A stretch of 64,000 bases of DNA from Candidatus Curtissbacteria bacterium (GTDB lineage Bacteria; Patescibacteriota; Microgenomatia; Curtissbacterales; GWA2-41-24), in assembly GCA_024654445.1 (NCBI GenBank), contig JANLHP010000022.1, positions 15,332 to 79,331 of the forward strand. Reading direction: 5' to 3'. The notes under the pieces are model-generated. The model did not search any database. It was not told where the DNA came from and was given only the letters and a program-made list of their open reading frames with translations. The translations under genes were made by a program, and so were the position numbers. Shown here piece after piece: positions 2-63,581 of the stretch; the stretch's first letter is position 1, and each line of letters starts with the position of its first letter.

Positions 2-1039
2 ATCTCTACAAAATCCAAATTTAAATCAGGTATTTCTATTAGGATAGAAGGCGTTTCATCTTATCTCAAGTCTCAAGGAATACAAACTGTAATTGTCGAC
101 AAAATAAGGACGCCTAGAAAAGCAGATTATACGTACTTGTTGGTAAGTACCAAAAAAGACTCTATTAGCTACTCCGCGGCTCGTAACATTGAAGACAAAA
201 GTAAGGTGATCGTCGATCTTTACACTCCGCTAATCTTAGAAAAAGAGTTAACCTTTTCAAAATACAAACCTTTTGATTGGGTTAAAAAAAATAGCCAAAA
301 AGACAATATTAAACTAATACTTTCAAAAGGGTCTCATTTTTTCGTTGCAAACAAACGACAAAAGGAATATTGGTTAACTTTTTCCGAACAAGAAAGTTTG
401 AACTTAACCAACAGACAGATCTCAGTTATCCCTACGGGTTATTCACAAAAAAGTATTAAACCCTCACCCCAAAAGAAAATTCTCTGGTTCGGAGGAATTT
501 ACCCTTGGATGAATCCTTATCCTTTAATTGAAGCATTCAAAAAAATAACGGACAGCGATCAAGAGTGGAAGTTAAAAATTCTAGGAGGCTTTCATCCAGA
601 AACTGGTTATCAAAAGATATACAAAGACGTAACTTCAAAATTAAAAACAATCCCTAAAAACCGTCTAGAAATTCTTCCTTGGCTTCCTGCAAAAGACCTT
701 AACAAGAATCTCGCAGATGTTTCTTTCTGTGTTAACCTAGTAAAGGAGTCGAAAGAGGATTTCTACTCGCATCGCGTCAGGCTCCTTACAGTTCTTAACG
801 CTGGAATACCAATATTGACGAATGGTAAAGATACGATAAGTGACCTTGCTGTTGAAAAACTAGCAGGGGAGAAAGTGCATGCTAGAGTCAATGAACTCTA
901 CGAAAAAATGAGTAGTCTAATCAACAATAAGAGACTGGTCAAAAAAATGCGAGACAATGCCCTGAAAGTCCAAAATGATTTTATTAAGGAAAATTTATCA
1001 GATAAAAATTTTAAATCATTTGTCAAAAAAAGTGCCTGA
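2..1039 (+). CDS. GT-B (GT4-like) glycosyltransferase, 5'-truncated at the window edge. The reading frame is open from position 2, and the ORF-track start at 137 is only the first TTG.
   Basis: C-terminal GT4-type motif region (ILWFGGIYPWMNPYPLIEAF...). There is no in-frame stop between position 2 and 137, so the N-terminal domain lies upstream of the window. Confidence 0.5.
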   Translation: MSTKSKFKSGISIRIEGVSSYLKSQGIQTVIVDKIRTPRKADYTYLLVSTKKDSISYSAARNIEDKSKVIVDLYTPLILEKELTFSKYKPFDWVKKNSQKDNIKLILSKGSHFFVANKRQKEYWLTFSEQESLNLTNRQISVIPTGYSQKSIKPSPQKKILWFGGIYPWMNPYPLIEAFKKITDSDQEWKLKILGGFHPETGYQKIYKDVTSKLKTIPKNRLEILPWLPAKDLNKNLADVSFCVNLVKESKEDFYSHRVRLLTVLNAGIPILTNGKDTISDLAVEKLAGEKVHARVNELYEKMSSLINNKRLVKKMRDNALKVQNDFIKENLSDKNFKSFVKKSA

Positions 1040-2621
1040 GGTTTCTAAAGAAAACCTTATTATCTTAACATTCGGGCTTCTAATTGGCTTCGTAGTCTCG
1101 CTCCCCCACATTTTAGGCAGTATTGATAATAAAGGAGCTTATCAGCCCTTTTCCGTCAATTCTGCGGTTTCCTACTCCAAAGAGGAAGCCTATACTTATG
1201 CTGCCCAAGTACAGCACCTTGTCAAAGGTTATTTGATTGGAGACCCATATATATGGGAATACAGAAACGGGCTCTCTCCCTATCTTGGAGAACTAGGTAG
1301 TATTGTTCCTGTATCCATCCTCTCAATACTTTTATCTAGCGTCCCCAAGGGATTTATGGCATCAGACTTTGTCTTTCCGTTTACTCTTTTCTTATTAATC
1401 TCGAAAAATTTAAAAAATTTAGGATTTAATTTAAGTTTCACCCTTTTTGCCGCAAGCGCAGTTCTAGTAATCCCCTTTTTGTCTGTGCTGATACCGAAAA
1501 TCACAAGTTATGGAACTGTTTTAACCGGGATAGAAAATGGGCCGTTGCTCTTTACGAGAACACCTCACCCACAAATATCTGATGTTTACCTTTTTTGCGC
1601 CATCTTCACGTCAATTTGGTTTTTGAAGTCAAAAAATCCCAAAAGAGTAATAATTCTACCAATAATCCTTGGGCTCTCGCTTTACTCTTCTGTCTATGTC
1701 GCATCAACAATTATCTTAGCATCGCTGATCATCGCACCTTTTGCCGCAAAAAACTTGGACAAAAAGCAAATAACAAAAATCTTAATTATTGGGGCGATAG
1801 TTTCGCTGCCTCTGCTTTTAAATTTTTACCTGACACGGGAAATTCTCTCGAAGGAGTTCATTCTACGGTTTTCTCAAGAAAAAAATTTTCTCTTCCCAAT
1901 CCAAATTAGGTACCTTTTAATTGCATTCCTTCTGTATAAATTTAGGCCTCGCGACCCCATCTACAAAGTTTTATTTATATATGTAGTTTGCGCTGCAGTT
2001 CTTATTGATTTTCACCAAATTATTCTCGGAAGAGATTTACAAGGAGACCACTGGATAACAAGAGTTATAGCTCCTTTGGCTACGCTCTCTCTTTTATTAA
2101 TCACCTATACTTTTTTCAAAAAGGCAAATTACCGACTTTGGACTTTGGCTACGCTCTCGATTTTAATTTTTGGCTTTTACGTCCAGAATAACTGGTATCA
2201 GAACAACAAAAGTTATTTAACGCAAGACACCAGAACTGCGTCATTGATAATGCAAATAAACACAATGGGCAACAATTACGTAGTGGGCACTTTGAACACC
2301 AGCCTAGGAGACGAAATTAGAGCAACTACGGGAATCTGGACTTATCTTTCACCCGGGGATAGGTCTTATATAAGTACCGCAGAACAAATCCAGAGAGCTT
2401 GCGACCTTTTAGTTTTACAAAAGGGTACATCAACTCTAGAAGAAGCAAACGAAGCGCTACTATATGAGTTAGGTCTCGAGGCTAAGAATAAAAAAACTGT
2501 GGAAAAAGTGCAAAGAGAATTATCGCAGTGTGCACAAAAAAACAATACAACGCCCTCCTTTAAACTAGACTACTTAATAGTCGAAAGCGAAAATGGAGAG
2601 TACTCCTTAAAAAAGATCTAG
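975..2621 (+). CDS. Polytopic integral membrane protein with a C-terminal soluble domain; putative GT-C-type glycosyltransferase or polymerase. The start is uncertain (ATG at 975 or GTG at 1032).
   Basis: Ten or more predicted hydrophobic helices followed by a roughly 150 aa hydrophilic tail. It sits next to other GT-C-like genes. Confidence 0.4.
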   Translation: MILLRKIYQIKILNHLSKKVPEVSKENLIILTFGLLIGFVVSLPHILGSIDNKGAYQPFSVNSAVSYSKEEAYTYAAQVQHLVKGYLIGDPYIWEYRNGLSPYLGELGSIVPVSILSILLSSVPKGFMASDFVFPFTLFLLISKNLKNLGFNLSFTLFAASAVLVIPFLSVLIPKITSYGTVLTGIENGPLLFTRTPHPQISDVYLFCAIFTSIWFLKSKNPKRVIILPIILGLSLYSSVYVASTIILASLIIAPFAAKNLDKKQITKILIIGAIVSLPLLLNFYLTREILSKEFILRFSQEKNFLFPIQIRYLLIAFLLYKFRPRDPIYKVLFIYVVCAAVLIDFHQIILGRDLQGDHWITRVIAPLATLSLLLITYTFFKKANYRLWTLATLSILIFGFYVQNNWYQNNKSYLTQDTRTASLIMQINTMGNNYVVGTLNTSLGDEIRATTGIWTYLSPGDRSYISTAEQIQRACDLLVLQKGTSTLEEANEALLYELGLEAKNKKTVEKVQRELSQCAQKNNTTPSFKLDYLIVESENGEYSLKKI

Positions 2622-2622
2622 A

Positions 2623-4119
2623 ATGACAAAGATCGTAAAGATTCAACTCATTTTATTCTCAGCGTTATTGATATTATGGAATATTTTTACACCTATTCTA
2701 GAAGGCGCCGATGAATCCGGACATTTTTGTCACGCTGACTATATTGCGCATAAAGGGAAAATTCCTAACATTAAAATCCAAGACGGTTGCTATCTTTGGC
2801 ACCCACCATTCTATTATTCAATGTTGGCACCAATCATAAAAGTGTTTGGCTTGCCAGAGTATCCCCAAAGCCAATTAGAGATGAATCCCAACTTCAACTT
2901 ACTTAGAAAAGGAGAGTATTCTCAGTTTGTACACACTAAGGAAGAATTGATGCTTGGCTGGGGACGCCTCGAATTCTTAGTCCATACTTTAAGATTATTT
3001 TCTGTACTTTGCGCCATTGGCATCTTTTTGATTGCAGTTCAATTATTAAAATTCACCTTGAAAAACGAAAGCCAAAGAACCCTAAGCCTACTCTTTCTTT
3101 TCAACCCCATGTTTATTCATATTTTTACCACGCTTACAAACGTAACCCTATTAAGTTTTATTTCCGCACTTTTTCTTTTTATTGAATTAAAATACTTCAA
3201 AAGCTTAAAACCTGCAAAAATTCACGTCCTTCAAGGCTTTTTACTGGGTATCGGATTTTTAACTAAAATAACCTTCGTTGCAGCCGGAGCGTTCTATTTA
3301 AGTGTTGCTTTGTTAAAATTAAGAAACAGACCTGAAAGCCTTAGAAGAAGTGCAATAGAAATATTAATCTTTATATCGACTTTCATGATCGTCACTGGAT
3401 GGTACTTGGCAAGAGCTCTCACTCTTTATGACACGCCTCTGGAAATTAACGCGCTCACTCAAGCGCAAGGAGGAGACCACCATTTAGATCTTCTAGAAAA
3501 TATTGGCCCTTTAAATTATTGGAATAGTTTTGCCTTAACACTGTTTAGAACTTTTTGGTCTGGGTATGGAGCGCTGACAGTACGCTTTCCTGAAATATTA
3601 AATTTAGTTTTACTTATCAGCGTTATGCTCGTAATAATAGCAGCAATTAAAAAATGGAAAAGAACAAATGCTTACTTCAAATTGTCAGCACTTTACTTAG
3701 CGGTAACTTTCATAACTCTAATCATCGGAAATTTCACACTATCTGCAATGCATGCAAAGGATCTATTCCCCGCGTACTTACCAATCTCTTTCTTATTCGC
3801 TTATGGGGCGAGCAATTTGACAAAAGTATTTAAAAAAAACGGAAAAATGATTTTTTTGGGAATTCCCGTAGCGATCTATTTTTTTGCACAAAACGAAGTT
3901 GTTGGAATTCTAAAATTACTGTTCTTCCAAGAATCTCAAGGGGCTTACTTAAAACCTCTAATTGTTAAGGTGACGACTGTTCTAGCTCTGTATGGTCTTA
4001 TTTATCAAGGGCTAAAAAAATTAAAGATAAATAACAGGTGGCATATCAAAATTACGTTTACTTTATTTGTCGCCAATATTGTAATTCTAGCAATTTCCAC
4101 CTACTTATTTTACAGCTGA
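2623..4119 (+). CDS. Polytopic membrane protein, DUF2142/GT-C-like putative glycosyltransferase.
   Basis: An acidic DE-x-x-H motif in the first extracytoplasmic loop (ADESGHFCHADYIAH) and many TM helices. It is a paralog of the ORF at 58124..59707 (PDEQAHF). Confidence 0.45.
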   Translation: MTKIVKIQLILFSALLILWNIFTPILEGADESGHFCHADYIAHKGKIPNIKIQDGCYLWHPPFYYSMLAPIIKVFGLPEYPQSQLEMNPNFNLLRKGEYSQFVHTKEELMLGWGRLEFLVHTLRLFSVLCAIGIFLIAVQLLKFTLKNESQRTLSLLFLFNPMFIHIFTTLTNVTLLSFISALFLFIELKYFKSLKPAKIHVLQGFLLGIGFLTKITFVAAGAFYLSVALLKLRNRPESLRRSAIEILIFISTFMIVTGWYLARALTLYDTPLEINALTQAQGGDHHLDLLENIGPLNYWNSFALTLFRTFWSGYGALTVRFPEILNLVLLISVMLVIIAAIKKWKRTNAYFKLSALYLAVTFITLIIGNFTLSAMHAKDLFPAYLPISFLFAYGASNLTKVFKKNGKMIFLGIPVAIYFFAQNEVVGILKLLFFQESQGAYLKPLIVKVTTVLALYGLIYQGLKKLKINNRWHIKITFTLFVANIVILAISTYLFYS

Positions 4120-5068: not shown

Positions 5069-5210
5069 GGACTAAAGCCCATGATTAGGCCCGGAATCAC
5101 ATTTAGTTACATAAATATGACGAGGACCGCATGGCACTGTAGGTTTTGACATTCGCTTAAAGAATCACTCTCAGCCTCAACTTGAAAGCTGGGGCTTCTC
5201 GCTCACAATA
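5069..5210 (+). repeat. Intergenic repeat element, copy A (forward). Its 3' part overlaps the C-terminal codons of the ORF 5177..6709.
   Basis: Shares ggactaaag..ttaggcccgga..GACGAGGACCGCAyGGCAyTGTA..ttttgaYATTCGCT..ctcgctcaYaata with copies at 17461, 35631 and 63582. Confidence 0.8.
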
Positions 5211-8250: not shown

Positions 8251-8260
8251 TAGCTTGCTG

Positions 8261-9388: not shown

Positions 9389-9397
9389 AACTTATGT

Positions 9398-20664: not shown

Positions 20665-20706
20665 TTTCTTCTTAAGGCCATTATTATAGCAATACTGCTC
20701 TCGTGC

Positions 20707-22535: not shown

Positions 22536-22546
22536 AACGCTAGTTT

Positions 22547-45094: not shown

Positions 45095-45095
45095 A

Positions 45096-53823: not shown

Positions 53824-53825
53824 AT

Positions 53826-54782
53826 TTACGAAGTTGATCTGAAGTATTCGATGGTTTTCTGAAGACCTTCCTCAAGCGGTATTTTTGGTTGCCACCCGAG
53901 GTCTCTTTTCGCTTTGTTCGTATTAGGCTTCCTGATAAGAGGGTCATCTTCAGGTAAAGGCTCGGAAAAAATAATTTCGCTGGAGCTATTAGTAAGCGCC
54001 TTTATCATTTGCGCAAACTGTAAAATTGTTTTTTCGTCGTCATTACCAAGATTATATATCTCTCCACTACTGCCTTCTTCCATTGCGGCAATTTGTCCCT
54101 CTATTTGATCGTCAACGTAACAAAAAGATCTCGTCTGTTTTCCGTCGCCATATATAGTAATTCGTTCCCCAGAAAGTGCCTGATTTATAAAATTAACAAC
54201 CGCTCTCCCTTCGCTTGGATTCATCCTTGGGCCATAAGTATTAAAAATTCTGGTGATTCGCCCATCAAGTCCTTTCTTTCTCACAAAAGCGGAAACAATT
54301 GTCTCCCCAAATCTTTTTGCCTCATCGTAAACCGATCTTGGGCCAATCGTTGAAACATTTCCCCTGTAATCCTCACCCTGAGGAGACCTTTCCGGGTCGC
54401 CATACACCTCGCTCGTCGAGGCAAAACTTAATTTAGCGCCATGACGAGCGGCAAGCTCACACATATTCCAAGTTCCCGTTGTGTTTACGAGCATCGTTTC
54501 AAAAGGATGAGCCAAATAAGAAAATGGCGAGTTGGAATTTGGATCAGCCGGGGAAGCGAGGTGGTAAATCTTATTAAATTTAAATTTACGATTCGAAAAA
54601 GGTTTTATTACATCATGGTTTATGAAAGTAAAGTTCTTATCGTTAAGAAGATGCGCAATATTCTTTTGAGAACCTGTTATCAAATTGTCAACGCAAACAA
54701 CTTCGCTTCCCTCACCAAGCAATTTTTCAGAAAGGTGACTTCCTAAAAATCCAGCCCCACCAGTTACAAGCACCGTCTCCAT
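53826..54782 (-). CDS. UDP-glucuronate decarboxylase (UXS/ArnA-C-terminal-domain type; UDP-xylose or UDP-4-keto-pentose synthase).
   Basis: VLVTGGAGFLGSHL...VVCVDNLITGSQKNIAHLLNDKNFTFINHDV closely matches the UXS consensus. Confidence 0.85.
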   Translation of the reverse strand: METVLVTGGAGFLGSHLSEKLLGEGSEVVCVDNLITGSQKNIAHLLNDKNFTFINHDVIKPFSNRKFKFNKIYHLASPADPNSNSPFSYLAHPFETMLVNTTGTWNMCELAARHGAKLSFASTSEVYGDPERSPQGEDYRGNVSTIGPRSVYDEAKRFGETIVSAFVRKKGLDGRITRIFNTYGPRMNPSEGRAVVNFINQALSGERITIYGDGKQTRSFCYVDDQIEGQIAAMEEGSSGEIYNLGNDDEKTILQFAQMIKALTNSSSEIIFSEPLPEDDPLIRKPNTNKAKRDLGWQPKIPLEEGLQKTIEYFRSTS

Positions 54783-54817
54783 GTAATCATATTTTAACAG
54801 GATGAATTAACTTTTTA

Positions 54818-55954
54818 CTAAACAACTTTTTCAAGAACTGCGGCAATGTAATCCATTTCAGACTTTTTAAGTTTGGGATACATTGGAAGCCTTATCAATG
54901 TTGCCGCGATCTCTTCCGTCACTGGCAAGTCTCCCGCTTTATATCCCATCTTCCTACCCATCACAGAAGTATGAAGTGGTAAATAATGGAAAGAGGCTTC
55001 AATTCCATACGACCTAAGAGATTTTATAACTCGAGCCCTTGCTAGCCTTGGAACGCGAATTGCGAAAATATGCCAATCACACTCAAGATTCTCATCCCTG
55101 AACGGAAGAATCAGTTTAGACGATAATGGTTCCAACTTTTTTAAAAAGTACTCTGCATTCTTTCTTCTCATTTCAGTAATTGTGTCTAATTTTTTGATTT
55201 GTTCAAGCGCAATCGCGCTCAGGATATCGGAAAGAACAAGACTTCTGCCAACACTTACCCAGGAATATTTTTTCTTCTCCCCCCTCATAAACGAAGATCT
55301 ATCCGTCCCTTTTTCTCTTATAATTTCCGCCATTCTGTGAAGCTTCAAATCGCCCGTTACAAAAATACCCCCTTCGCCGCTCGCCGCGTTTTTTGTTCCA
55401 TGAAAAGAATAACAACCCACTTTACCTATCGTTCCTAAAAATTTACCATTATATTTTGATCCGAGCGCATGAGCAGCATCTTCCACAACATACAAATTAT
55501 GTTTTTTTGCGATTTGGTTAATTTTGTCCATGTCGCACGCGAGCCCCGCGTAGTGGACTACCATAATTGCTTTAGTCTTTTTTGTAATAAGTTTTTCAAT
55601 TTCTAGTGGGTTAATATTGTAAGTATTTATATCGATGTCACAAAAAACCGGTTTTGCTCCCGCAAGCAAAACAGCGTTAGCACAAGAAGAAAATGTAAAA
55701 CTTGGCAAAATGACTTCATCTCCACTCTTCAGTAAGCAAGCACACGCAAGCTCTAGCGCTGCTGTTCCAGAGTTTGTGGGGAGGACAAACTTTATACCAA
55801 ATTTATCAGAAATAGTTTTAGCCAGAACCTCGCCAAAAGAAAGGTCGCCAACGCCGGTGCCACTTCTCATCGCGGAAATTGCGGCTCTTTCTTCCTCTCT
55901 TCCCCAAAATGGCTTGTGAAGGGGAATGGTATAAGGAGTTGGCGTTAAATTCAT
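54818..55954 (-). CDS. DegT-family PLP aminotransferase (ArnB-like UDP-4-keto-pentose transaminase). The start is trimmed to MNLTPTPY.
   Basis: SFHGTKNAASGEGG PLP-Lys motif. The trimmed start overlaps the ArnC-like gene by 4 nt. Confidence 0.85.
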   Translation of the reverse strand: MNLTPTPYTIPLHKPFWGREEERAAISAMRSGTGVGDLSFGEVLAKTISDKFGIKFVLPTNSGTAALELACACLLKSGDEVILPSFTFSSCANAVLLAGAKPVFCDIDINTYNINPLEIEKLITKKTKAIMVVHYAGLACDMDKINQIAKKHNLYVVEDAAHALGSKYNGKFLGTIGKVGCYSFHGTKNAASGEGGIFVTGDLKLHRMAEIIREKGTDRSSFMRGEKKKYSWVSVGRSLVLSDILSAIALEQIKKLDTITEMRRKNAEYFLKKLEPLSSKLILPFRDENLECDWHIFAIRVPRLARARVIKSLRSYGIEASFHYLPLHTSVMGRKMGYKAGDLPVTEEIAATLIRLPMYPKLKKSEMDYIAAVLEKVV

Positions 55955-56670
55955 CTCAAATCTTGGGAGAATTTTTGCCTGAATTGAACAAGTTTTCTCA
56001 TATACTCGATTGAATCGGGAATTAATCTCACCGTCGATTTCTTGTCTGGTCTTTTTATAAACAGGACCGGAATCTCCGTTATTTTCAGATTTGCAACCAG
56101 TGCCCTTGCGCAAATTTCGGTATCAAAAAACCAACCATGGTCGCGAGTTTTTGAAAGAACGGGCAAAATTTTCTTCCTATTAAAAAATTTGTATCCCGCC
56201 TCTGTATCCTTAAACGGAAGGCTGATTATTTTAGAAACTAGTGCGCAGTATGATTTCGACGCCACAACTCTCATTACACTTCCAGAGCTTATTTCGTAAT
56301 AGCGAGTGGCAATCGCCATATCACTCCCATTTTCAATTTCTTCAATAAACAGAGGAATATAACTTGGGGAAATTTCACAGTCAACGTCAATAAAGCCACA
56401 TATAGTCCCATCTGCAGCCTTTATTCCATCGCTAACAGACTTACCTCTGCCTTGATTTTTCTTGTGATATATCGCTTTAAAGTTTTTATCAGACGCGACA
56501 AATTTTTCAATAGACCTTTTTGTTTCGTCGACGCTTTTGTCTTCGACAAAAATAATTTCCCAGTTGATTTTTAACAATTTAAGGACCAAAAAGATTGACT
56601 GGACGCTTTCTTCAAAAGTAGGGCCTTCGTTATAGCAGGCAAGAATTAAAGAGAAGTCAACTTTTACCAT
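55951..56670 (-). CDS. GT2 polyprenyl-phosphate aminosugar transferase-like (ArnC/DPM1-like catalytic domain with no C-terminal TM helices).
   Basis: FSLILACYNEG, FVEDKSVD and IDVDCE motifs of the GT-A fold. Confidence 0.7.
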   Translation of the reverse strand: MVKVDFSLILACYNEGPTFEESVQSIFLVLKLLKINWEIIFVEDKSVDETKRSIEKFVASDKNFKAIYHKKNQGRGKSVSDGIKAADGTICGFIDVDCEISPSYIPLFIEEIENGSDMAIATRYYEISSGSVMRVVASKSYCALVSKIISLPFKDTEAGYKFFNRKKILPVLSKTRDHGWFFDTEICARALVANLKITEIPVLFIKRPDKKSTVRLIPDSIEYMRKLVQFRQKFSQDLR

Positions 56671-56688: not shown

Positions 56689-58089
56689 CTAAGGTAATTC
56701 GGGGCAGTTCTCAAATTCAACAAAACAGTACTTATAATTTTTTTCCCTGAACCAGAAATCTATTGCCTTTCCGGTACCTAAAGAAATGTACTGATCCTGT
56801 GAAGATGCATTATTCGCACCATCAAAAATTAACATAGAACCACTTGGTAAATTTTTGTCTTTTACATTTTTAATCGCTTCTTTTGCGACGATACTTCTTG
56901 CAATAACCCAGCTGTTTTTCATCGCAAGTGTTTGTCCATAAGTTGCAATAATCAAAAATAAAAGAGCAAGAGAAACTAAGTGAGATGACTTCAGTTTTTG
57001 AACAGCAAAGCCGATAATCCCGCTCAACCCAAATGCGCTGATTACCATGTAATGCGCACCCAGGTGACTCGGTATCAAAACAAACGGGAAAAGGCCAACA
57101 ACTGTTATAAAACAAAGAAATATAAATGTTCGTAAGTCGTCTTTGTTTCTAAACCCCCGAATATATATAAGGCAAATCACAAAAAGGTATGAAATAAGAG
57201 CAAGCGAAAAAAGACTCTTCCCTTGGCCTTCAACAAAACCGAGTATCCTTAACAGATAAAATCTAAAAGTGAAAATTGTCCTTTGCGAAATCTCGAGGAC
57301 GTAAACATTCAAAGTATCGGGGGGAGTAAAAAATAAAAGCTTTACTCCCGAAAAGAGAACAGTCAACGCAAAAAGTGCTGATAAAAAAGAAAAGTCACTC
57401 TTTATTCCGAGCGAAAAATTCCGGCTTTTAAGCCGGGGATGAAGCGAATCTTTGAGCGAGGAAGAGAGAACCACGGCCGAAAGAACGTGGGAATCTATCC
57501 TTTTAAGAAAAACAGAAGTCGCGACAAATATTAAAATACCAACAACTATCGCTTCCGTTGCAAGCAATGAAAGAAAATAAAATAAAAATGCCCCAAGCTT
57601 TCTTTTTATAATAAAAAGATAAAGGCTAAGAGAAAAGAACAGAAATCCAATATTCACCGCTCCTCCGGAAATCCAGAATAGGGAAGTGAAGTGCAAGGGG
57701 TGAGTAGCGTAAACAACAGACGCGAAAAAACCAGAAATATTATTTTTGAAAAGTTTTCCAAAAACCAAAAAAACCATAAATGCGCAAAGAGTGTGAATGA
57801 GAAGAATTACTACGTGGTAAGCAGGGTAAAATTTCCCAAAAAGATTACCTGTTATAAGAAAAAACAAGTTATGTATAGGTCGCCAGTGAGTAACTTCTGG
57901 AGGACCGAATACATTTTGTAAATCCACCAAAAAGGAATTTTGAGAAAAATTATTTATTAAAATAAAATCATCTTGAGCGAAGAAATTAAAAAGAGATCTA
58001 AACCATACTACGACAATAACTAAAGTTAAAATCAAAAAAACAACCGAGTTTTTACTCACAGTTTTAATTCTATCATCGAAGAATGGCAA
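56689..58089 (-). CDS. GT-C-fold membrane glycosyltransferase (ArnT/PMT-like).
   Basis: An acidic first-loop motif (FAQDDFIL) and more than 10 TM helices. It sits downstream of the ArnB/ArnC-like genes. Confidence 0.6.
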   Translation of the reverse strand: MPFFDDRIKTVSKNSVVFLILTLVIVVVWFRSLFNFFAQDDFILINNFSQNSFLVDLQNVFGPPEVTHWRPIHNLFFLITGNLFGKFYPAYHVVILLIHTLCAFMVFLVFGKLFKNNISGFFASVVYATHPLHFTSLFWISGGAVNIGFLFFSLSLYLFIIKRKLGAFLFYFLSLLATEAIVVGILIFVATSVFLKRIDSHVLSAVVLSSSLKDSLHPRLKSRNFSLGIKSDFSFLSALFALTVLFSGVKLLFFTPPDTLNVYVLEISQRTIFTFRFYLLRILGFVEGQGKSLFSLALISYLFVICLIYIRGFRNKDDLRTFIFLCFITVVGLFPFVLIPSHLGAHYMVISAFGLSGIIGFAVQKLKSSHLVSLALLFLIIATYGQTLAMKNSWVIARSIVAKEAIKNVKDKNLPSGSMLIFDGANNASSQDQYISLGTGKAIDFWFREKNYKYCFVEFENCPELP

Positions 58090-58123: not shown

Positions 58124-59707
58124 GTGAATGGACTCCTTAAACTACTTATCGCGGCTGCTCTTTTAAACTCTTTGTCGTGGATTATTTTAACTCCCGTTTG
58201 GCAATACCCGGATGAACAAGCGCATTTTTCTCAAGTACAGGATATGGCGGAAATTGGATATGTACCAACAAGCCTAAACACGTCCCAAGAAGTTTCCCTC
58301 TCTGAACAAATACTTGAAACCGAAAGAAACAACCTTGGAAACAACAAATTCACGTATCACCCGGAATATAAAATTAATTATGGCAACGGTTGGTATGGCC
58401 CCAGAGAACGGGAGCTTGCGCAATTACAAGAGTCAGAGCGCACAAACTTTGTAAAAAATGAAGCAACTCAAAACCCTCCTTTTTACTACACGCTCGCATC
58501 TATTTTTTATAACATCTTTGACGGTGGCAGTATCCTCAATCGCGTGTACGCGGTAAGGTTTATGTCTGCATTACTTTTTGTCGCAAATATTTATGTCGCG
58601 GCAAAAATTGGAAACATTGTCTTCCCTAAAGAGAAAATTTTAGCTTTCACAATTCCCACGCTTGTTGCTTTCAAGCCAATGCTTGTCCATGCGTCAACCG
58701 GAGTACTTCCCGACACGCTCACGAATCTCCTATTCAGCGCAGTACTGCTCGTTTGTTTAAAGATCATGACAGTTGGATTAAAAACAAAGTTCCTCCTTAT
58801 AGGGATTGTGCTCATAACAGCAGGAGTTTTTACTAGGCAGCAATTTCTTCTCGCAGTTCCAATTTTGGCAATAAGCGCCGCATTTAGCGTTTGGAAAAAG
58901 AAGAAGGTTCTTTCCTTGACAATCGCCTCAATTCTAATTATTGCAATTTGCCTTCTTGAAGCAGGTTACAGGTTTGCGTCAACCCCTTTTATTTCTTATT
59001 TTCGAATCCCGGAATTAAGTCTTATCAAAGTAGAATCTCTCGCAAGCGAATCAATTATCGATTATTTGAAATGGTCAATAAGGCAAACCATAGCTCAAAC
59101 TCTGCCTTGGTATTGGGGAGTCTACAAATGGCTGTCTTTAACAGTGCCGCATTTAAATTATCAAATTATAAATAGAATCATAATAGTCTCAGTCGTAGGA
59201 GTACTTCTAAGGTATTTCTTAGCCTTCCGTAACCGAAAATTTACCCAACAAGACGTATTGTTGACGTTTTTGATTATCGCAAGCCTTGTTTACTTTGCCC
59301 TCTTTTTAGTCTGGGATTACTTTTTCGTTCAAACTCACAATTTCCCATTTGGTTTTCAGGGAAGATATTTTTTTCCGCTCGTAGTTGCACATATAACGAT
59401 TCTATTGCTTGGGCTTATGGAAATTGCCCGATTAATTTTAAAAGACAGGGCGTGGCTTTTGGCACCTTTACTTGTCGCGGCGATGATTATTTTTAATTGG
59501 GTTTCTCTGTTTACCGTTGCTTCCTCATACTACGGCACATCAAATCTTAACCTTTTTATAGATCAGGCCAGTCAGTACAAACCCGAAATCGTAAAGGGTA
59601 ATGCAATCCTTCTTATACTGCTGCTATCAATTGTGTCCCAAATAATCCTCGTTTTAAATTTTTCTAAATTTACTCTCAAGCATCCTAAATGGCAAACAGA
59701 AAGGTAA
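58124..59707 (+). CDS. DUF2142/GT-C-like polytopic membrane protein (GTG start).
   Basis: YPDEQAHF motif near the N-terminus and many TM helices. It is a paralog of 2623..4119. Confidence 0.45.
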   Translation: MNGLLKLLIAAALLNSLSWIILTPVWQYPDEQAHFSQVQDMAEIGYVPTSLNTSQEVSLSEQILETERNNLGNNKFTYHPEYKINYGNGWYGPRERELAQLQESERTNFVKNEATQNPPFYYTLASIFYNIFDGGSILNRVYAVRFMSALLFVANIYVAAKIGNIVFPKEKILAFTIPTLVAFKPMLVHASTGVLPDTLTNLLFSAVLLVCLKIMTVGLKTKFLLIGIVLITAGVFTRQQFLLAVPILAISAAFSVWKKKKVLSLTIASILIIAICLLEAGYRFASTPFISYFRIPELSLIKVESLASESIIDYLKWSIRQTIAQTLPWYWGVYKWLSLTVPHLNYQIINRIIIVSVVGVLLRYFLAFRNRKFTQQDVLLTFLIIASLVYFALFLVWDYFFVQTHNFPFGFQGRYFFPLVVAHITILLLGLMEIARLILKDRAWLLAPLLVAAMIIFNWVSLFTVASSYYGTSNLNLFIDQASQYKPEIVKGNAILLILLLSIVSQIILVLNFSKFTLKHPKWQTER

Positions 59708-60849
59708 CCCTCGACGTTAAAAGAAATTTAGCAGTCATACTGCTTTTAGTTTTCGCAACTGCCCAATTCATTTTAATCCTGCGCCACAAAAATCCATACG
59801 TTTCAGACAGTTATTTTTATAAGCATACATACTATCAACTTAAAGGTTTAAGCTACGACGAGGCCCAAGCAAAAATCATTAGCGAAGTAGACCTGATAGC
59901 AGCGGACGAAATTACCAGAAATTTTTTTCAAAACAAGGAAACTTACGCTAATTCGTATTCATTTTTCCAAAAAAGACCCTTTTACCCTCTTACCGCGTAT
60001 TTGGCAAGCCTATTTAATCTCAACGATTATTTATCTTTTCAAATACCCGTATTTACCGCTTATATCTTAAGCGTTATTCTTGTGTTCCGCCTGTCAAAAG
60101 AAGGACTGGGCTACTTTTTTGCTATCATTTCAACTGCACTTTTTGTTTCTTTCTATCCGTTTCTTGACAGTTCAACTTATTTTTTAACAGACACAATCGG
60201 TTTTGCCTTTTGGTTAAGCCAGATATTCACGATTTACAATTACATCAAAAGTAAAAAGAGCAAATGGCTTATATTCTTCTTTATCTCTCTCTCAATCTCC
60301 CTCTTAAACAGAGAGCAAAGCGTTCTCATGGCGCCACTACTTATGAGCGCTTTAGTCCTTCAAAAACTCCTCTTACTAAAAGGCGCGAGTCAAATTAAAA
60401 AATTGCTCTTTGTTTCCTTCATCCCAATAATCTTATTCATCACTGTCTCCTTTATGTTAAAACTCCCAAATATATACGACACCATCAGCTACACTCAAAA
60501 TAATTACGGCTTGCGTTCAAACAAATTTACAGCGGAAGAAACTTTTAGGTATATGGCAAACGCGATTAAGATATCACATTATGTTTTTATAAGAGACATC
60601 GTCAGTCACCACTGGTGGTTACTCTTGTCCGCGCTGGCAGCAGTTAGTGCTTTGAGGTCTTTGGTAAAAGGGAAAAGAAATAATTTGGACATCCTTATTG
60701 TAAGCTCGGCCCTAGCTTCGTATCTGGCTATTTTTATCTATCCCGTTTTAAGTTACAGATATTTCTTGCCAATAGTTTTCGCTGTTTCATACTTCAGCGT
60801 AAAAATACTCCGAGATTATAATAAGGAAGTTATGTCAAAAAACAAATGA
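59689..60849 (+). CDS. Polytopic membrane protein of unknown function (polymerase, ligase or GT-C-like).
   Basis: Ten or more hydrophobic helices. It lies in an operon with a GT-C and an acetyltransferase. Confidence 0.35.
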   Translation: MANRKVTLDVKRNLAVILLLVFATAQFILILRHKNPYVSDSYFYKHTYYQLKGLSYDEAQAKIISEVDLIAADEITRNFFQNKETYANSYSFFQKRPFYPLTAYLASLFNLNDYLSFQIPVFTAYILSVILVFRLSKEGLGYFFAIISTALFVSFYPFLDSSTYFLTDTIGFAFWLSQIFTIYNYIKSKKSKWLIFFFISLSISLLNREQSVLMAPLLMSALVLQKLLLLKGASQIKKLLFVSFIPIILFITVSFMLKLPNIYDTISYTQNNYGLRSNKFTAEETFRYMANAIKISHYVFIRDIVSHHWWLLLSALAAVSALRSLVKGKRNNLDILIVSSALASYLAIFIYPVLSYRYFLPIVFAVSYFSVKILRDYNKEVMSKNK

Positions 60850-61385
60850 AAGCCAGGGAAGAGCTAGGCACTAAAAAAATTCTAGAGTTTGCGTTTTTTT
60901 CCTTTCTCCAACTGATTTATTGCCTCCTGTTTTTACCGCCTTTAAAAAAGATTTCCCTGGAGCTTTTGGGCGCCCGAATAGGGCAGGGGACAGTCATCAT
61001 GAATGCCAAATTTTTCAACTTGCACCACAATGGACTTAAAGGGTTCAAAACGGGAAGAGATTGTTTTATTGCCGATGATGTCCTTATCGATCTTTACGAC
61101 AACGTAACTCTCGAAGACCAAGTAACTCTGGCACAAAGAGTAACTGTGCTTACACATCTAAATGTGGGGTACAAAGATCATCCGCTTCAAAAGTATTTCC
61201 CGAAAAGATCAGAACCTGTAGTCTTTAAAAACGGTTGTGTAGTTGGCGCAAGTTCAACAATTCTCAGTGGCGTGACAATTGGAGAAAAATCCTTTGTTGC
61301 TGCCGCAAGCCTTGTAACAGAAAATGTGCCACCAAATACATTAGTTGGCGGAGTACCCGCGAAAATAATTAGGAAAATTAAATGA
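60846..61385 (+). CDS. Hexapeptide-repeat (left-handed beta-helix) acetyltransferase, sugar O-acetyltransferase type.
   Basis: Tandem hexapeptide repeats near the C-terminus (GCVVGASSTILSGVTIGEKSFVAAASLV). Confidence 0.8.
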   Translation: MKAREELGTKKILEFAFFSFLQLIYCLLFLPPLKKISLELLGARIGQGTVIMNAKFFNLHHNGLKGFKTGRDCFIADDVLIDLYDNVTLEDQVTLAQRVTVLTHLNVGYKDHPLQKYFPKRSEPVVFKNGCVVGASSTILSGVTIGEKSFVAAASLVTENVPPNTLVGGVPAKIIRKIK

Positions 61386-61945
61386 TGATTCCATTCTATG
61401 AATCATTAAGGCCACTCATCCTGCCTTTAAGTCAGATAGACAGCCTTCTGCCAAAGCAAGGAACAATCGTTGAGCTTGGATGTGGTCAAGCAGTAATTGC
61501 AATCTATCTGGCAAAAAACAAAAAAAGAAAAGTAATTGGAGTCGACCAAGACACTTCGAGGCTTCCAAAAAATTCCACAAAAAATCTAAAGTTTATAAAT
61601 GCCGATATCAGAACTTACAAATTGGAAAAAGCGGACGGGGTAGTAATATCAGATGTCCTTCATCATATCAGTTCAAAAGACCAAGAAAAAATCCTCCAAA
61701 ACATTGCAAATTCTTTAAGAAAGGGCAAGATATTGATTATAAAAGAGATCGACACGGAAGAGAAAGTTAGAAGCAAGTTATCACGTCTCTGGGATTTTAT
61801 CCTTTACCCTAGGGACCACATCGACTACTGGAGCTCGAGCGCCCTTAAGTCTCAGCTTGAGCGGTTAGGCTTCAGGGTTGAAATAAAAAGAACTATAAGA
61901 CCGTTTCCGGCGTCAACCACCCTATTTATTTGTATAAAAATGTAA
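61382..61945 (+). CDS. Class I SAM-dependent methyltransferase.
   Basis: TIVELGCGQAV motif I and the acidic post-I VIGVDQD. Confidence 0.75.
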   Translation: MMIPFYESLRPLILPLSQIDSLLPKQGTIVELGCGQAVIAIYLAKNKKRKVIGVDQDTSRLPKNSTKNLKFINADIRTYKLEKADGVVISDVLHHISSKDQEKILQNIANSLRKGKILIIKEIDTEEKVRSKLSRLWDFILYPRDHIDYWSSSALKSQLERLGFRVEIKRTIRPFPASTTLFICIKM

Positions 61946-61982
61946 TTTTTCCTAATAAATATGTGAGAAACTCATTTTTCAT

Positions 61983-63581
61983 ATGTACAAAAATTTAATC
62001 CGACATTGGCCACTATTGCTGATTGTAATTCTGGCATTTGTCTTAAGAGTTGTAAATCTAGAAAAACTTTTTTACTTCACATACGATGAATCTATACCTG
62101 CCTTCGTCGGAAGGAGACTGATTCTCACAAACCACATACCACTTATCGGGGGAGTAACACCCTTTGGATTCCACCTTGGACCATACTTTTACTGGCTCTT
62201 GGCACTGCTCTTATATATTGGCAAGTTAAATCCAATCGTGTGGGGAATTGCGGGGGCTCTTTTAGGAAGCGCCACAACTTTTATGGCGTATGTTGCGGGA
62301 CAAAAGTTCCTGAACAAAAAAGCCGGCGTAACGGCTGCCGTGTTTTGGGCATTTTCTTTTCTTGCGAATCTGTACGACAGACACTTTTGGGCTTTGTCTT
62401 GGGGTCCAATTATTTCACTGATCGTGTTGTTTTCTCTTCATGGAATAATCAAAGGAAATTCAAGATTTGTTTATCCACTCGCTGTCTCTGTCGCTTTTGG
62501 TATCCACGCCGACCCTTCCAACCTCGTATTTGTATTGCTCGTTGGGCTGGTGTGGGCAATCTACAAGTTGCCAATTACAAGACACACGCTTCTTGCCACG
62601 AGCTTAATTATTTTCTCATTCCTTCCCCTTGTCGCTTTCGACCTTAGACATGATTTTGCAAATACTCGACCTATGATTTCTCATTTCAAAAACTTTTCAA
62701 ACCGGCAGCCAGATCAAAAAACACTTTCACAAAGAGCGACTGACAACGCTATCATATTTCCCGCGGCCTTCGCGAGACTCGTTTATACTCTTGGAGACAA
62801 CGAAGTCTCTAAACAATACTCATACTGTGGAAATTACGTCGCCGAAAAAACAAGAATTATTCCAGTGTATTTGATACTACTGGCATCATCCCTCCTTACC
62901 GGCTTTGCGCTTTGGGGATTCAACCAAAAAACCAAAAACCCCGCCATCTTTATATCAGCCCTTCTTCTCGTAGTTTATTTTCTTGGCATCCAACTTTATG
63001 GAACCCTTGCAAAAGCGGATATTTTTGAACATTACATTTCAGGGACTTTCGCGATTTTTCTTTTAATTTTGGCAAAGGTTGTAAGCAAATTACCAAGAAA
63101 GCTTTGGCTCGTCGTACTGGCAATCTTTGTTGGCGCTAATCTCTACAAGCTGTTAATTGCCACCAACTCGCATGGGCTAACACAAAAGAGAGAGGCAATA
63201 GAATATGTTAATTCCAGAGTAGGGGACGCGCCTTTCTCCCTAGAATCAGTTTCTACGTGCTGGAAATACAATGGCTACAGATACCTGTTTACAGTTTTTG
63301 GCAAAGAACCCGTCAAAAGTTACGTCGACCCAAATTTCGCTTACCTTTATGGAACGACGACAGTTTGGGAAACCCACCCCGGCACGGTAATCGCTTTTGT
63401 TACTCACGACTTTTCTGAGGAGACCGAAGAGTTTTATAAAAGATATGCGCTTTTAAAATCCCACGAGGTGAGTTCGGGAATCTTCGGTAATATAGAAGTT
63501 ATAATGATGGATAACCAGATAAAATGGTTCGATGACATTAACACTAGTGTTAAACCGCCTTCTTTTGAACAACAGCGCTAA
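61983..63581 (+). CDS. GT-C-fold membrane glycosyltransferase (GT39/GT83-like).
   Basis: First-loop YDESIPAFVGRR acidic motif, more than 11 TM helices, and a C-terminal soluble domain. Confidence 0.6.
   Translation: MYKNLIRHWPLLLIVILAFVLRVVNLEKLFYFTYDESIPAFVGRRLILTNHIPLIGGVTPFGFHLGPYFYWLLALLLYIGKLNPIVWGIAGALLGSATTFMAYVAGQKFLNKKAGVTAAVFWAFSFLANLYDRHFWALSWGPIISLIVLFSLHGIIKGNSRFVYPLAVSVAFGIHADPSNLVFVLLVGLVWAIYKLPITRHTLLATSLIIFSFLPLVAFDLRHDFANTRPMISHFKNFSNRQPDQKTLSQRATDNAIIFPAAFARLVYTLGDNEVSKQYSYCGNYVAEKTRIIPVYLILLASSLLTGFALWGFNQKTKNPAIFISALLLVVYFLGIQLYGTLAKADIFEHYISGTFAIFLLILAKVVSKLPRKLWLVVLAIFVGANLYKLLIATNSHGLTQKREAIEYVNSRVGDAPFSLESVSTCWKYNGYRYLFTVFGKEPVKSYVDPNFAYLYGTTTVWETHPGTVIAFVTHDFSEETEEFYKRYALLKSHEVSSGIFGNIEVIMMDNQIKWFDDINTSVKPPSFEQQR

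What the first reader, a model, noticed from the sequence alone, without database searches (positions are those of the whole stretch)
975..63581. Seven GT-C/DUF2142-like polytopic glycosyltransferase genes in one locus
ORFs at 975, 2623, 17712, 56689, 58124, 59689 and 61983 are all large polytopic membrane proteins. Most have an acidic motif (DE/DD) in the first extracytoplasmic loop, and two have a PDE-x-AHF/DES-x-HF DUF2142-type motif. Two polyprenyl-phosphate GT2 synthases (20707 and 55951) could supply their lipid-linked donors. Such an array points to multiple periplasmic or extracytoplasmic glycosyl transfers, as in protein O-glycosylation, S-layer or cell-wall glycopolymer decoration, rather than a single O-antigen polymerase.
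Basis: partly seen in the sequence, partly recalled or inferred. Interest (0 to 1): 0.55.

Follow-up and report, generated by a model that had tools for sequence, protein, structure and literature searches.

The report
Seven membrane glycosyltransferases in CPR glycan locus
A tiny-genome groundwater bacterium (Candidatus Curtissbacteria) carries a 64-kb sugar-making gene cluster with seven different membrane-embedded (GT-C fold) glycosyltransferases that most likely attach rare sugars to its surface polymers outside the cell membrane; this is a large but recognisable version of a known system.

Summary
The seven ORFs are polytopic membrane proteins, and each has independent evidence of being a GT-C glycosyltransferase.

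- **Pfam hits:** 17712 and 59689 match PMT_2, and 58124 matches DUF2142.
- **Profile comparisons:** 2623 matches the DUF2142 family at 98% hhalign probability. 61983 is linked to PMT_2 through its family members and to 17712.

All seven carry a conserved acidic motif just after TM1. None resembles a transporter, Wzy or WaaL.

The window comes from a Candidatus Curtissbacteria MAG. The GT-C genes sit in a large nucleotide-sugar locus together with:
- a GtrB/ArnC-type GT2 (20707);
- a second GT2 (55951) that is adjacent to the 56689 family in at least 13 genomes;
- an ABC-2 exporter;
- the 5' end of a Wzx flippase.

The core module is conserved in about 16 Curtissbacteria-type species genomes.

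The best reading is an expanded multi-component transmembrane glycosylation system that builds or decorates a wall glycopolymer. Protein O-glycosylation is not excluded. I rate it a new member of a known kind, of moderate interest.

The parts
975..2621 (+). GT-C fold glycosyltransferase of a family with no Pfam model (NCBI NUV69_04080, 'hypothetical protein'; the NCBI start at about 1020 gives 533 aa)
2623..4119 (+). GT-C, divergent DUF2142-type (ADESGHF motif after TM1)
   Evidence: No Pfam hit itself. blastp to 58124 gives E 1e-5 over 357 aa. An HMM of the 58124 family gives E 7.7e-12. hhalign gives 98.2%, E 3.9e-14, over 384 columns. It is syntenic with the 975 homolog in L001/L002.
17712..19394 (-). 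GT-C, PMT_2/GT39-like (NCBI: 'glycosyltransferase family 39 protein')
   Evidence: Pfam PMT_2 31.5 bits (cut-off 26.1) and PMT 30.7 bits (cut-off 22.7). It has 59 homologs at 35-56% identity, those named being Curtissbacteria or Patescibacteria. Synteny with the GT2 and RfbH genes is conserved in L041 and L042.
19363..20664 (-). RfbH-type CDP-6-deoxy-4-hexulose 3-dehydrase, lying between GT-C 17712 and GT2 20707; it belongs to the CDP-sugar donor pathway
   Evidence: NCBIfam RfbH 677.5 bits against a cut-off of 423.
20707..21651 (+). GT2 polyprenyl-phosphate sugar synthase of the GtrB/ArnC/PgfS type (314 aa from the ATG at 20707)
   Evidence: Pfam Glycos_transf_2 92.7 bits. NCBIfam PgfS 238.5 bits and ArnC 153.8 bits, both aligned full-length but below the equivalog cut-offs. 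It has an ADLQDPPE motif and two C-terminal hydrophobic helices. A GT2 of 310-318 aa sits at the same place, on the opposite strand, in L041/L042.
50748..52894 (-). ABC-2 polysaccharide exporter: Wzm-like permease 52028-52894 and Wzt-like ATPase 50748-52031
   Evidence: Pfam ABC2_membrane 79.5 bits, ABC_tran 86 bits, and a weak Wzt_C hit of 20.6 bits, below the cut-off. An ABC-2 pair lies next to the 17712 homolog in L041.
52876..56113 (-). Donor-sugar module: two SDR dehydratase/epimerases (52876-53823, 53826-54782) and a WecE-type 4-aminotransferase (54818-56113)
   Evidence: NCBIfam dTDP-4-amino-4,6-dideoxygalactose transaminase 399.6 bits against a cut-off of 375. The SDRs score below cut-off against GalE (best hit for 52876-53823) and dTDP-glucose 4,6-dehydratase (best hit for 53826-54782). 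The same gene string is present in L004.
55951..56670 (-). Soluble GT2 (239 aa), inferred polyprenyl-phosphate sugar synthase partner of GT-C 56689
   Evidence: Pfam Glycos_transf_2 92.9 bits. It shows weak similarity to PgfS, AglJ, ArnC, dolichyl-P hexose transferase and PpgS. Orthologs at 285-326 bits occur in 13 loci; in 10 the gene lies immediately downstream of the 56689 homolog, and in three (L006, L012, L020) about 1.6-2.5 kb downstream.
56689..58089 (-). GT-C fold glycosyltransferase of a family with no Pfam model (NUV69_04345; FFAQDDF motif)
58124..59707 (+). GT-C, DUF2142 family (WQYPDEQAHF motif)
   Evidence: Pfam DUF2142 68.1 bits against a cut-off of 30.1, covering 5-393 of 395 profile positions. 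Orthologs occur in 18 loci. The motif is invariant.
59689..60849 (+). GT-C, PMT_2 family (386 aa; SDSYFYKH motif)
   Evidence: Pfam PMT_2 35.9 bits against a cut-off of 26.1. hhalign to the DUF2142 family gives 93.6%. Orthologs occur in 8 loci.
60846..61945 (+). Hexapeptide acetyltransferase (60846-61385) and SAM methyltransferase (61382-61945) embedded in the GT-C operon
   Evidence: Pfam Hexapep and Methyltransf_23. The acetyltransferase is WcaF/WbbJ-like. The same genes are present in L004.
61983..63581 (+). GT-C, divergent PMT_2-like (FYFTYDESIPAF motif); the most conserved member of the array
   Evidence: No Pfam hit itself. 5 of 17 family members hit PMT_2, best 2.1e-12. hhalign to 17712 gives 87.5% and to the 59689 family 76%. 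Orthologs are 53-61% identical in 12 loci.
63680..64000 (+). 5' end of a Wzx/MOP-type flippase gene, cut off by the end of the window
   Evidence: 50% identity (E 2e-31) to the L004 gene that carries Pfam Polysacc_synt and Polysacc_synt_3 and occupies the same position after the 61983 homolog.

Best explanation
The window is most of a conserved envelope-glycan super-locus of a Candidatus Curtissbacteria (CPR/Patescibacteria) genome. Cytoplasmic enzymes make several rare activated sugars. GT2 enzymes load some of these onto polyprenyl phosphate: 20707 is GtrB/ArnC-type and 55951 is soluble. [quoted passage not shown] The seven GT-C enzymes then act at the outer face of the membrane. Each uses its conserved acidic residue after TM1 to transfer sugar from the lipid carrier onto a surface acceptor, most likely a secondary cell-wall glycopolymer.

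Two Arn-like units can be recognised:
- SDRs + WecE-type aminotransferase 54818 + GT2 55951 + GT-C 56689, for a 4-amino-4,6-dideoxyhexose.
- The CDP-3,6-dideoxy/branched-sugar route including RfbH 19363 + GT2 20707 + GT-C 17712.

The two DUF2142-type proteins (58124, 2623) may polymerise or attach flipped oligosaccharide units, as proposed for lactococcal WpsI and WpsJ.

What is shown: GT-C family or fold for all seven, the motifs, the GT2 architecture, and the synteny and its conservation. What is inferred: donor identities, enzyme pairing, sidedness and the acceptor.
For: - **GT-C assignment of all seven:**
- **Acidic motif after TM1:** conserved within the families whose alignments were made or inspected. 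In the 56689 model, D40 and D41 sit at the start of the first short helix after TM1 (DSSP).
- **GT2 20707:** aligns full-length with PgfS and ArnC and has ADLQDPPE plus two C-terminal TM helices.
- **GT2 55951:** next to, or within about 2.5 kb of, the 56689 family in at least 13 loci.
- **GT2-RfbH-GT-C 17712 string:** conserved in L041 and L042. In L041 an ABC-2 transporter is inserted next to the GT-C.
- **Donor enzymes:** the WecE-type transaminase and RfbH both score above NCBIfam cut-offs.
- **Export:** ABC-2 Wzm/Wzt and a Wzx fragment.
- **Conservation:** the core module is present in about 16 Curtissbacteria-type species representatives, with 5-9 polytopic ORFs in most full-length 20-kb loci, including a Pfam YfhO protein.
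- **Literature:** GT-A + flippase + GT-C systems decorate LTA, WTA and rhamnose polysaccharides exported by ABC transporters (PMC8035078). DUF2142 proteins in cwps/rgp loci are proposed as the WpsJ transferase and WpsI polymerase (PMC9746298, PMC12599335).
Against: - No acceptor, LCP ligase, priming phosphoglycosyltransferase or GtrA-type flippase is present in the window (and the Pfam survey).
- Only two candidate lipid-phosphate sugar synthases serve seven GT-Cs.
- GT2 55951 lacks TM helices and the ADLQ motif, so its role is inferred from synteny.
- A GtrB-type enzyme using a CDP-sugar has, to my knowledge, no precedent.
- 17712 also passes the Pfam PMT model, which describes protein O-mannosyltransferases.
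- Nothing here demonstrates catalysis.
Confidence: 0.55

Rival explanations
1. The GT-C enzymes, especially the PMT_2/PMT-like 17712, 59689 and 61983, are protein O-glycosyltransferases. They would glycosylate S-layer, pilin or other secreted proteins from polyprenyl-phosphate sugars, as the actinobacterial and eukaryotic PMT, TMTC and TMEM260 enzymes do.
Confidence: 0.25
2. Most of the glycan is built outside the membrane by a GT-C assembly line, rather than merely decorated there. Successive GT-Cs would add single rare sugars from polyprenyl-phosphate donors, as mycobacteria build arabinan and LAM with AftA-D, Emb and PimE.
For: There are seven GT-Cs but only about three or four candidate cytoplasmic glycosyltransferases for at least five or six sugar pathways: GT4 at 1-1039, GT2 at 34719, and 5177 and 15055, which hit surface-carbohydrate or BFO_1060 models weakly. 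The best structural match of 975 is AftA. Further polytopic genes, including YfhO and a protein of about 466 aa, follow in relatives.
Against: Only two candidate lipid-P sugar synthases lie in the window. More GT4 and GT2 genes lie just upstream of the 975 homologs in L001 and L003, and so probably upstream of this window as well. CMP-activated nonulosonic acids are normally transferred in the cytoplasm.
Confidence: 0.12
3. Some of the seven are not transferases. They could be GT-C-fold scaffolds, flippase-associated proteins (compare Agl23 or PIG-U), or enzymes acting on a membrane glycolipid (LTA-like) anchor.
Confidence: 0.08

Closest known systems
Multi-component (three-component) transmembrane glycosylation systems of Gram-positive bacteria: CsbB/GtcA/YfhO, GtlA/GtlB, CsdAB/CD/EF with CflA, GacI/J/K/L (reviewed in PMC8035078)
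   Same: A membrane-associated GT-A (GT2) makes a C55-P-sugar, a flippase moves it, and a polytopic GT-C with an acidic motif in an outer loop transfers it to a wall polymer. The GT-Cs are of PMT_2, YfhO or no-Pfam types. The backbone is exported by an ABC transporter. GT2 and GT-C genes are linked.
   Different: This locus has seven GT-Cs (more in relatives) but only two candidate GT2 partners in the window. No GtrA-type flippase is present; there is only a Wzx-type gene. The inferred donors are rare sugars (a 4-amino-4,6-dideoxyhexose and a CDP-derived 3,6-dideoxy or branched sugar) rather than Glc, Gal or GlcNAc. The organism is a CPR bacterium whose envelope has not been characterised.
Lactococcal and streptococcal cell-wall polysaccharide (cwps/rgp) dual-chain assembly, with the DUF2142 proteins WpsJ and WpsI (PMC9746298, PMC12599335)
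   Same: DUF2142 polytopic proteins lie in a polysaccharide locus together with an ABC exporter, a Wzx-like flippase and GT2 genes. The proposed role is to polymerise a flipped oligosaccharide or attach it to an exported backbone.
   Different: Sequence similarity is at the Pfam family level only. I made no direct comparison with WpsI or WpsJ. There is no rhamnan (rmlA-D/rgpA-F) backbone gene set in the window. The WpsI/WpsJ roles are themselves proposals.
Arn pathway (ArnB/ArnC/ArnT) and mycobacterial PpgS/Rv3779
   Different: The aminotransferase is WecE-type, scoring 399.6 bits against a 375 cut-off, whereas the ArnB model scores 224.6 bits against a 631 cut-off. GT2 20707 reaches only 153.8 bits against ArnC's 529 cut-off, and 55951 reaches 24.3 bits against the PpgS model (cut-off 370). 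A CPR bacterium is not expected to have a lipid A acceptor (established knowledge, not tested here).
Mycobacterial arabinogalactan/LAM GT-C set (AftA-D, EmbA-C, PimE)
   Different: Sequence identity is only 9-12%. There is no decaprenyl-P-arabinose pathway. The similarity is at fold level only.

Membership tests
GT-C glycosyltransferase superfamily (fold class) | Polytopic membrane protein with 8 or more TM helices, whose N-terminal TM1 is followed by an extracytoplasmic loop | tested here: met
   7-13 hydrophobic segments in each of the seven. Each has a short, positively charged N-terminus followed by TM1 (sequences). The helix maps of the two models fit.
GT-C glycosyltransferase superfamily (fold class) | Conserved acidic residue(s) (DxD, DE, DD or ExD) in the first outer loop | tested here: met
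   Motifs are listed. They are invariant or at least 90% conserved in the family alignments made; no alignment was made for 17712. 59689 has a single conserved Asp.
GT-C glycosyltransferase superfamily (fold class) | Structural or profile similarity to solved or curated GT-C members | tested here: met
GT-C glycosyltransferase superfamily (fold class) | Uses a polyprenyl-phosphate- or diphosphate-linked donor | not testable with these tools
   Needs biochemistry.
Pfam PMT_2 (PF13231; GT39/GT83-like) | HMM score above the gathering cut-off of 26.1 bits | tested here: met
   Met for 17712 (31.5 bits) and 59689 (35.9 bits). Not met for 61983 itself, although 5 of 17 relatives hit. Not met for 975, 2623 or 56689.
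Pfam DUF2142 (PF09913) | HMM score above the gathering cut-off of 30.1 bits | tested here: met
   Met for 58124 (68.1 bits, near full-length). 2623 does not reach it by Pfam but aligns with the 58124 family at 98.2% hhalign probability.
Protein O-mannosyltransferase (GT39 PMT proper) | PMT N-terminal domain plus the PMT_4TMC C-terminal domain (and MIR domains in eukaryotes); a protein Ser/Thr acceptor | tested here: inconclusive
   17712 passes PF02366 (30.7 bits against 22.7), but no PMT_4TMC or MIR hit appears at E<=0.01. The acceptor cannot be tested.
Multi-component transmembrane glycosylation system | GtrB/CsbB-type GT2 with C-terminal TM helices | tested here: met
   20707-21651: full-length alignment to PgfS and ArnC, plus ADLQDPPE and two C-terminal hydrophobic helices.
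Multi-component transmembrane glycosylation system | Genetic linkage of the GT2 and GT-C genes | tested here: met
   55951 is adjacent to 56689 in the window, and the pair lies adjacent or within about 2.5 kb in at least 13 loci. 20707 is one gene away from 17712, and this is conserved in L041 and L042.
Multi-component transmembrane glycosylation system | Dedicated flippase (GtrA-type or Wzx-type) | tested here: inconclusive
   No GtrA-like small membrane ORF is in the window. A Wzx-type gene starts at 63680 but is cut by the window end.
Wzy O-antigen polymerase / WaaL ligase / SEDS | Fold or profile similarity to WaaL, Wzy, RodA or FtsW | tested here: not met
Oligosaccharyltransferase (STT3/PglB/AglB) | WWDYG-type motif in the C-terminal periplasmic domain; STT3 Pfam hit | tested here: not met
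   No STT3 Pfam hit. No WWD motif is visible in the 975 sequence, even though the fold aligns with PglB and STT3.
Arn pathway (ArnB/ArnC/ArnT equivalogs) | NCBIfam equivalog cut-offs for ArnB (631) and ArnC (529) | tested here: not met
   54818 scores 224.6 bits on ArnB but 399.6 bits on the WecE-type model, against a cut-off of 375. 20707 scores 153.8 bits on ArnC. It works like Arn but is not a member.

The most novel reading that the evidence does not exclude
Curtissbacteria, and perhaps other Microgenomates, may assemble much of their surface glycan outside the membrane. A lineage-specific assembly line of 7-9 GT-C enzymes would be fed by polyprenyl-phosphate carriers of rare sugars. This would include a GtrB-type synthase that takes a CDP-activated 3,6-dideoxy or branched (yersiniose-like) sugar, a donor class not known for this enzyme type. 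It would also involve two GT-C families with no Pfam model, one of which has more than 1300 representative clusters.
Probability: 0.15. Interest if true: 0.65.

Novelty: new member of a known kind. Interest (0 to 1): 0.42.

Why it matters
CPR/Patescibacteria have genomes of about 1 Mb and lack many core biosynthetic pathways, and their envelopes are almost uncharacterised. This organism devotes at least 64 kb to rare-sugar synthesis and to seven or more extracytoplasmic glycosyltransferases. The core of that array is conserved across Curtissbacteria-type genomes. Surface glycans are therefore probably central to their biology, for example in attachment to hosts, phage defence or surface charge.

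In practical terms, NCBI calls at least two of the seven (975 and 56689) 'hypothetical protein'. Two families (975-type and 56689-type) have no Pfam model but are clearly GT-C. The 975-type family is large (1326 representative clusters) and could be curated. The conserved GT2/GT-C pairs give directly testable predictions about donor sugars.

Tried and rejected
- **PDB sequence searches.** Profiles of the 56689 and 975 families, and single sequences of 17712, 61983 and 59689, gave nothing. The 61983 family profile gave only TMEM260 at E 0.88. Sequence-level links to solved structures are therefore absent.
- **NCBIfam on the seven.** Only sub-threshold noise appeared: MsbA, FliQ, an antiporter and Agl23, at 13-19 bits. 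I rejected these as family assignments.
- **Transporter, Wzy, WaaL or SEDS identity.** Rejected for the 975 and 56689 models by fold.
- **OST identity for 975.** Rejected: no STT3 hit and no WWD motif.
- **Recent paralog expansion.** Rejected: the seven are mutually very divergent.
- **Recovering the rest of the 97.9-kb source contig.** This failed. The window's proteins are not on record in the look-up of encoding contigs.
- **afdb50 fold library.** Unavailable.
- **GtrA-type small flippase.** None found in the window.
- **Literature.** Searches linking CPR, Patescibacteria or Curtissbacteria with GT-C, glycosyltransferases or nonulosonic acids found no relevant paper in the held library.
- **Gene 19363.** I first took it for an aminotransferase partner, like ArnB. 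NCBIfam shows it is RfbH, a 3-dehydrase.

Full report
**1. What is in the window**

The 64-kb window has about 39% GC and is almost entirely coding. One long minus-strand block (4110-58089) is flanked by plus-strand genes at both ends.

The exact protein products identify the source. The 975 ORF is NUV69_04080 and the 56689 ORF is NUV69_04345. Both come from a Candidatus Curtissbacteria bacterium MAG on a 97,899-bp contig.

**2. The observation**

The seven ORFs exist as described, and each has 7-13 hydrophobic segments. The only other multi-spanning proteins are the ABC-2 permease (52028-52894) and a truncated gene at 63680-64000.

Each of the seven starts with a short, positively charged N-terminus and then TM1. 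An acidic motif follows within about 5-25 residues:
- 975: KEEAYTYAA
- 2623: EGADESGHF
- 17712: SNDEAIY
- 56689: AQDDFIL
- 58124: YPDEQAHF
- 59689: VSDSYFY
- 61983: TYDESIP

The motifs are not incidental. In alignments of homologs at 35-60% identity they are invariant or nearly so: FFAQDDF, WQYPDEQAHF, FYFTYDESIPAF and SDSYFYKH, and a DE/EE consensus in the 975 family. I did not build an alignment for 17712.

**3. Are they GT-C glycosyltransferases?**

*Pfam.* Three pass the gathering scores:
- 17712: PMT_2 31.5 bits and PMT 30.7 bits.
- 59689: PMT_2 35.9 bits.
- 58124: DUF2142 68.1 bits, near full-length.

The other four have no Pfam or NCBIfam family.

*2623.* It is linked to DUF2142 by blastp to 58124 (E 1e-5 over 357 aa), by an HMM of 18 orthologs of 58124 (E 7.7e-12), and by hhalign (98.2%, E 3.9e-14, 384 columns).

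*61983.* hhalign gives 87.5% to 17712 and 76% to the 59689 family. Five of 17 members of its family alignment hit PMT_2, the best at 2.1e-12.

*975 and 56689.* I built alignments (A2 with 7 sequences, A1 with 41 sequences) and predicted structures.
- Foldseek on the 975 model independently gives 17 GT-C hits at probability 1.00. WaaL scores 0.23 and transporters score below 0.1.

It was tested and not met.

The seven are not recent duplicates. Most pairs are undetectable by blastp, and profile comparison links only the chain 2623-58124-59689-61983-17712.

**4. Two families without a Pfam model**

*The 56689 family.* It has at least 167 relatives in the word-indexed search. Those carrying a source name are Curtissbacteria or Patescibacteria. 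UniRef labels some 'Glycosyltransferase RgtA/B/C/D-like domain-containing protein', while NCBI calls them hypothetical.

*The 975 family.* It looked rare in the word-indexed search, with 7 hits. An exhaustive profile search found 1326 representative clusters at E<=1e-3 and 224 at E<=1e-30. Of 44 diverse members, none has a family-level Pfam hit. One is fused to GT4-type domains and one to GT2-type domains; P0188 (987 aa) and P0203 (844 aa) are the members with long N-terminal extensions. This fits a role in glycan assembly.

**5. Context**

The rest of the window is nucleotide-sugar biosynthesis. It contains:
- two NeuB-type synthases and two CMP-transferases;
- a PseB-like dehydratase and DegT aminotransferases;
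- WbuX plus HisH/HisF, which form an acetamidino group;
- a CDP-glucose route with RfbH (677 bits against a 423 cut-off), a YerE-like TPP enzyme and an embedded DmpF/DmpG pair;
- a GDP-heptose-like set;
- three further transketolase/E1-type TPP systems;
- a WecE-type 4-aminotransferase (399.6 bits against a 375 cut-off);
- several methyl- and acetyltransferases;
- an ABC-2 Wzm/Wzt exporter.

*GT2 20707-21651.* It has the GtrB/ArnC/PgfS architecture: full-length alignments of 238.5 and 153.8 bits, an ADLQDPPE motif and two C-terminal helices.

*GT2 55951-56670.* It is a soluble GT2 with a DVD motif. Its similarity to lipid-phosphate sugar synthases is only weak.

*The window's end.* The last 321 bases encode the N-terminus of a Wzx-type flippase. 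It is 50% identical to a Polysacc_synt gene at the same position in a relative.

No GtrA-like ORF, priming transferase or LCP ligase is in the window (Pfam survey).

**6. Conservation**

A GTDB species-representative scan with the 56689 family returned 36 loci. About 16 of them (L005-L020) encode close relatives of 56689 (37-42% identity); several of their record titles name other taxa. In these loci the following module recurs:

[61983 family]-[methyltransferase]-[59689 family, in about half]-[hexapeptide acetyltransferase]-[DUF2142 family], divergent from [56689 family]-[GT2 of 239 aa]-[WecE-type aminotransferase]-[SDRs].

Most full-length 20-kb loci hold 5-9 polytopic ORFs. Where Pfam calls were available (L004), these included a Polysacc_synt flippase and a YfhO protein, together with an unassigned polytopic protein of 469 aa; ORFs of similar size occupy the same positions in other loci. 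The source genome therefore probably has eight or nine such genes, the extra ones lying just past the window's end.

The string [CDP-sugar route]-[GT2 of about 314 aa on the opposite strand]-[RfbH]-[17712 homolog] is conserved in two other genomes. In one of them an ABC-2 transporter pair sits directly beside the GT-C.

On one 722-kb groundwater contig, L004 and L041 overlap. They show the same super-locus in about 45 kb, without the window's 28070-50674 heptose/transketolase block. The locus therefore has conserved flanks and a variable middle, as O-antigen and cwps loci do.

Homologs of 975 and 2623 are adjacent in L001/L002. There, as for the 975 homolog in L003, they lie between GT4/GT2 genes and a NeuB cluster, as in the window.

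**7. Mechanism**

The anatomy matches the multi-component transmembrane glycosylation systems of Gram-positive bacteria. In these, a GT-A makes a C55-P-sugar, a GtrA- or Wzx-type flippase moves it, and a GT-C transfers it to LTA, WTA or a rhamnose polysaccharide that was exported by an ABC transporter (PMC8035078). DUF2142 proteins in lactococcal and streptococcal wall-polysaccharide loci are the proposed side-chain transferase WpsJ and polymerase WpsI (PMC9746298, PMC12599335).

I therefore propose two Arn-like units:
- SDRs + aminotransferase 54818 + GT2 55951 + GT-C 56689, for a 4-amino-4,6-dideoxyhexose that may be N-acetylated by 60846.
- The CDP route + GT2 20707 + GT-C 17712.

The remaining GT-Cs (975, 2623, 58124, 59689, 61983) would either share these donors or use Wzx-flipped diphosphate-linked oligosaccharides.

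What is shown: fold or family, motifs, GT2 architecture and conserved linkage. What is inferred: sidedness, donor identity, enzyme pairing and acceptor.

**8. Rivals**

- *Protein O-glycosylation.* It cannot be excluded. 17712 passes the PMT model, and Pmt4 is the top structural hit for 56689. However, the fold scores against lipid- and polysaccharide-modifying GT-Cs are similar, PMT_4TMC is absent, and the locus carries polysaccharide export genes.
- *A full extracytoplasmic assembly line.* This mycobacterial-style reading is the most novel one left open. It is suggested by the low number of cytoplasmic GTs in the window, but more GT4/GT2 genes probably lie upstream.
- *Non-catalytic GT-C folds.* This is unlikely given how strongly the motifs are conserved.

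**9. Verdict**

This is an unusually large, lineage-conserved instance of a known kind of system, in a poorly understood group. It includes two GT-C families that current domain libraries miss. Interest is moderate: useful for annotation and for CPR envelope biology, but not mechanistically surprising on present evidence.

Noticed in passing
window 19363-28083 (minus strand); also L004, L041, L042: This is a CDP-hexose route: an RfbF-like transferase (27313), CDP-Glc 4,6-dehydratase (26366), RfbH 3-dehydrase (19363), a YerE-like TPP enzyme (22547) and an SDR (21648). It points to a yersiniose-like branched 3,6-dideoxyhexose. A DmpF/DmpG pair (acetaldehyde dehydrogenase and 4-hydroxy-2-oxovalerate aldolase, 25450 and 24399) is embedded in it and conserved in three other genomes. 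The role of DmpFG in a sugar pathway is unexplained.
   Followed up: partly
window 22547-24331, 28070-30007, 44159-45965, 45962-47683, 47683-49684: Five separate TPP-dependent systems sit in one glycan locus: two ALS/YerE-type enzymes, one fused and one split transketolase-like enzyme, and one E1 alpha/beta pair. This suggests several C-branched or chain-extended sugars, which is unusual for a reduced CPR genome.
   Followed up: no
window 6706-8358, 33504-34571, 10796-11581, 30008-30745, 8261-10820: There are two NeuB-type synthases, one fused to an N-terminal GNAT domain, and two CMP-cytidylyltransferases, implying two different nonulosonic or ulosonic acids. WbuX (346 bits) with HisH/HisF indicates an acetamidino substituent.
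   Followed up: partly
window 5177-6709 and 15055-16371 (minus strand): Two proteins lack Pfam domains but hit the NCBIfam 'BFO_1060 family glycosyltransferase' or 'surface carbohydrate biosynthesis protein' models, below cut-off. They are candidate CMP-nonulosonate transferases. The 5177 homolog is syntenic in L001-L003.
   Followed up: no
window 35790-39718: A GDP-heptose-like set is present: a SIS isomerase (plus strand), a GHMP kinase and a fused nucleotidyltransferase-HAD phosphatase. It is followed by an SDR, an RmlC-like epimerase and an FkbM methyltransferase, suggesting a modified and methylated (deoxy)heptose.
   Followed up: no
window 63680-64000 (+): The 5' end of a Wzx/MOP flippase gene is cut by the window end. 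In relatives it is followed by a polytopic protein of about 466 aa with no Pfam family and by a YfhO-family GT-C, so the array probably continues beyond the window.
   Followed up: yes
P0188 (987 aa) and P0203 (844 aa), relatives of the 975 ORF: Among 44 scanned relatives of the 975 ORF, one carries GT4-type and one GT2-type cytoplasmic glycosyltransferase domains. P0188 and P0203, which match the profile only from residues 385 and 247 onward, are the likely fusion proteins, though the scan does not name which members hit. Overall the family has 1326 representative clusters and no Pfam model.
   Followed up: partly
L027 277-5827 and 9977-11425: Another uncultured genome, labelled Gammaproteobacteria in the record, carries three 61983-like paralogs within about 5.5 kb, with an unassigned ~1-kb interval between the first two. 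A 56689-like gene and further polytopic ORFs lie nearby, so GT-C arrays recur in related lineages.
   Followed up: no
window 28070-50674 versus L004+L041 (722-kb contig): The related genome has the same super-locus without this block of about 22 kb (heptose, transketolase, E1 and GDP-mannose dehydratase genes). The locus has conserved flanks and a variable middle, consistent with strain-level glycan diversification.
   Followed up: partly
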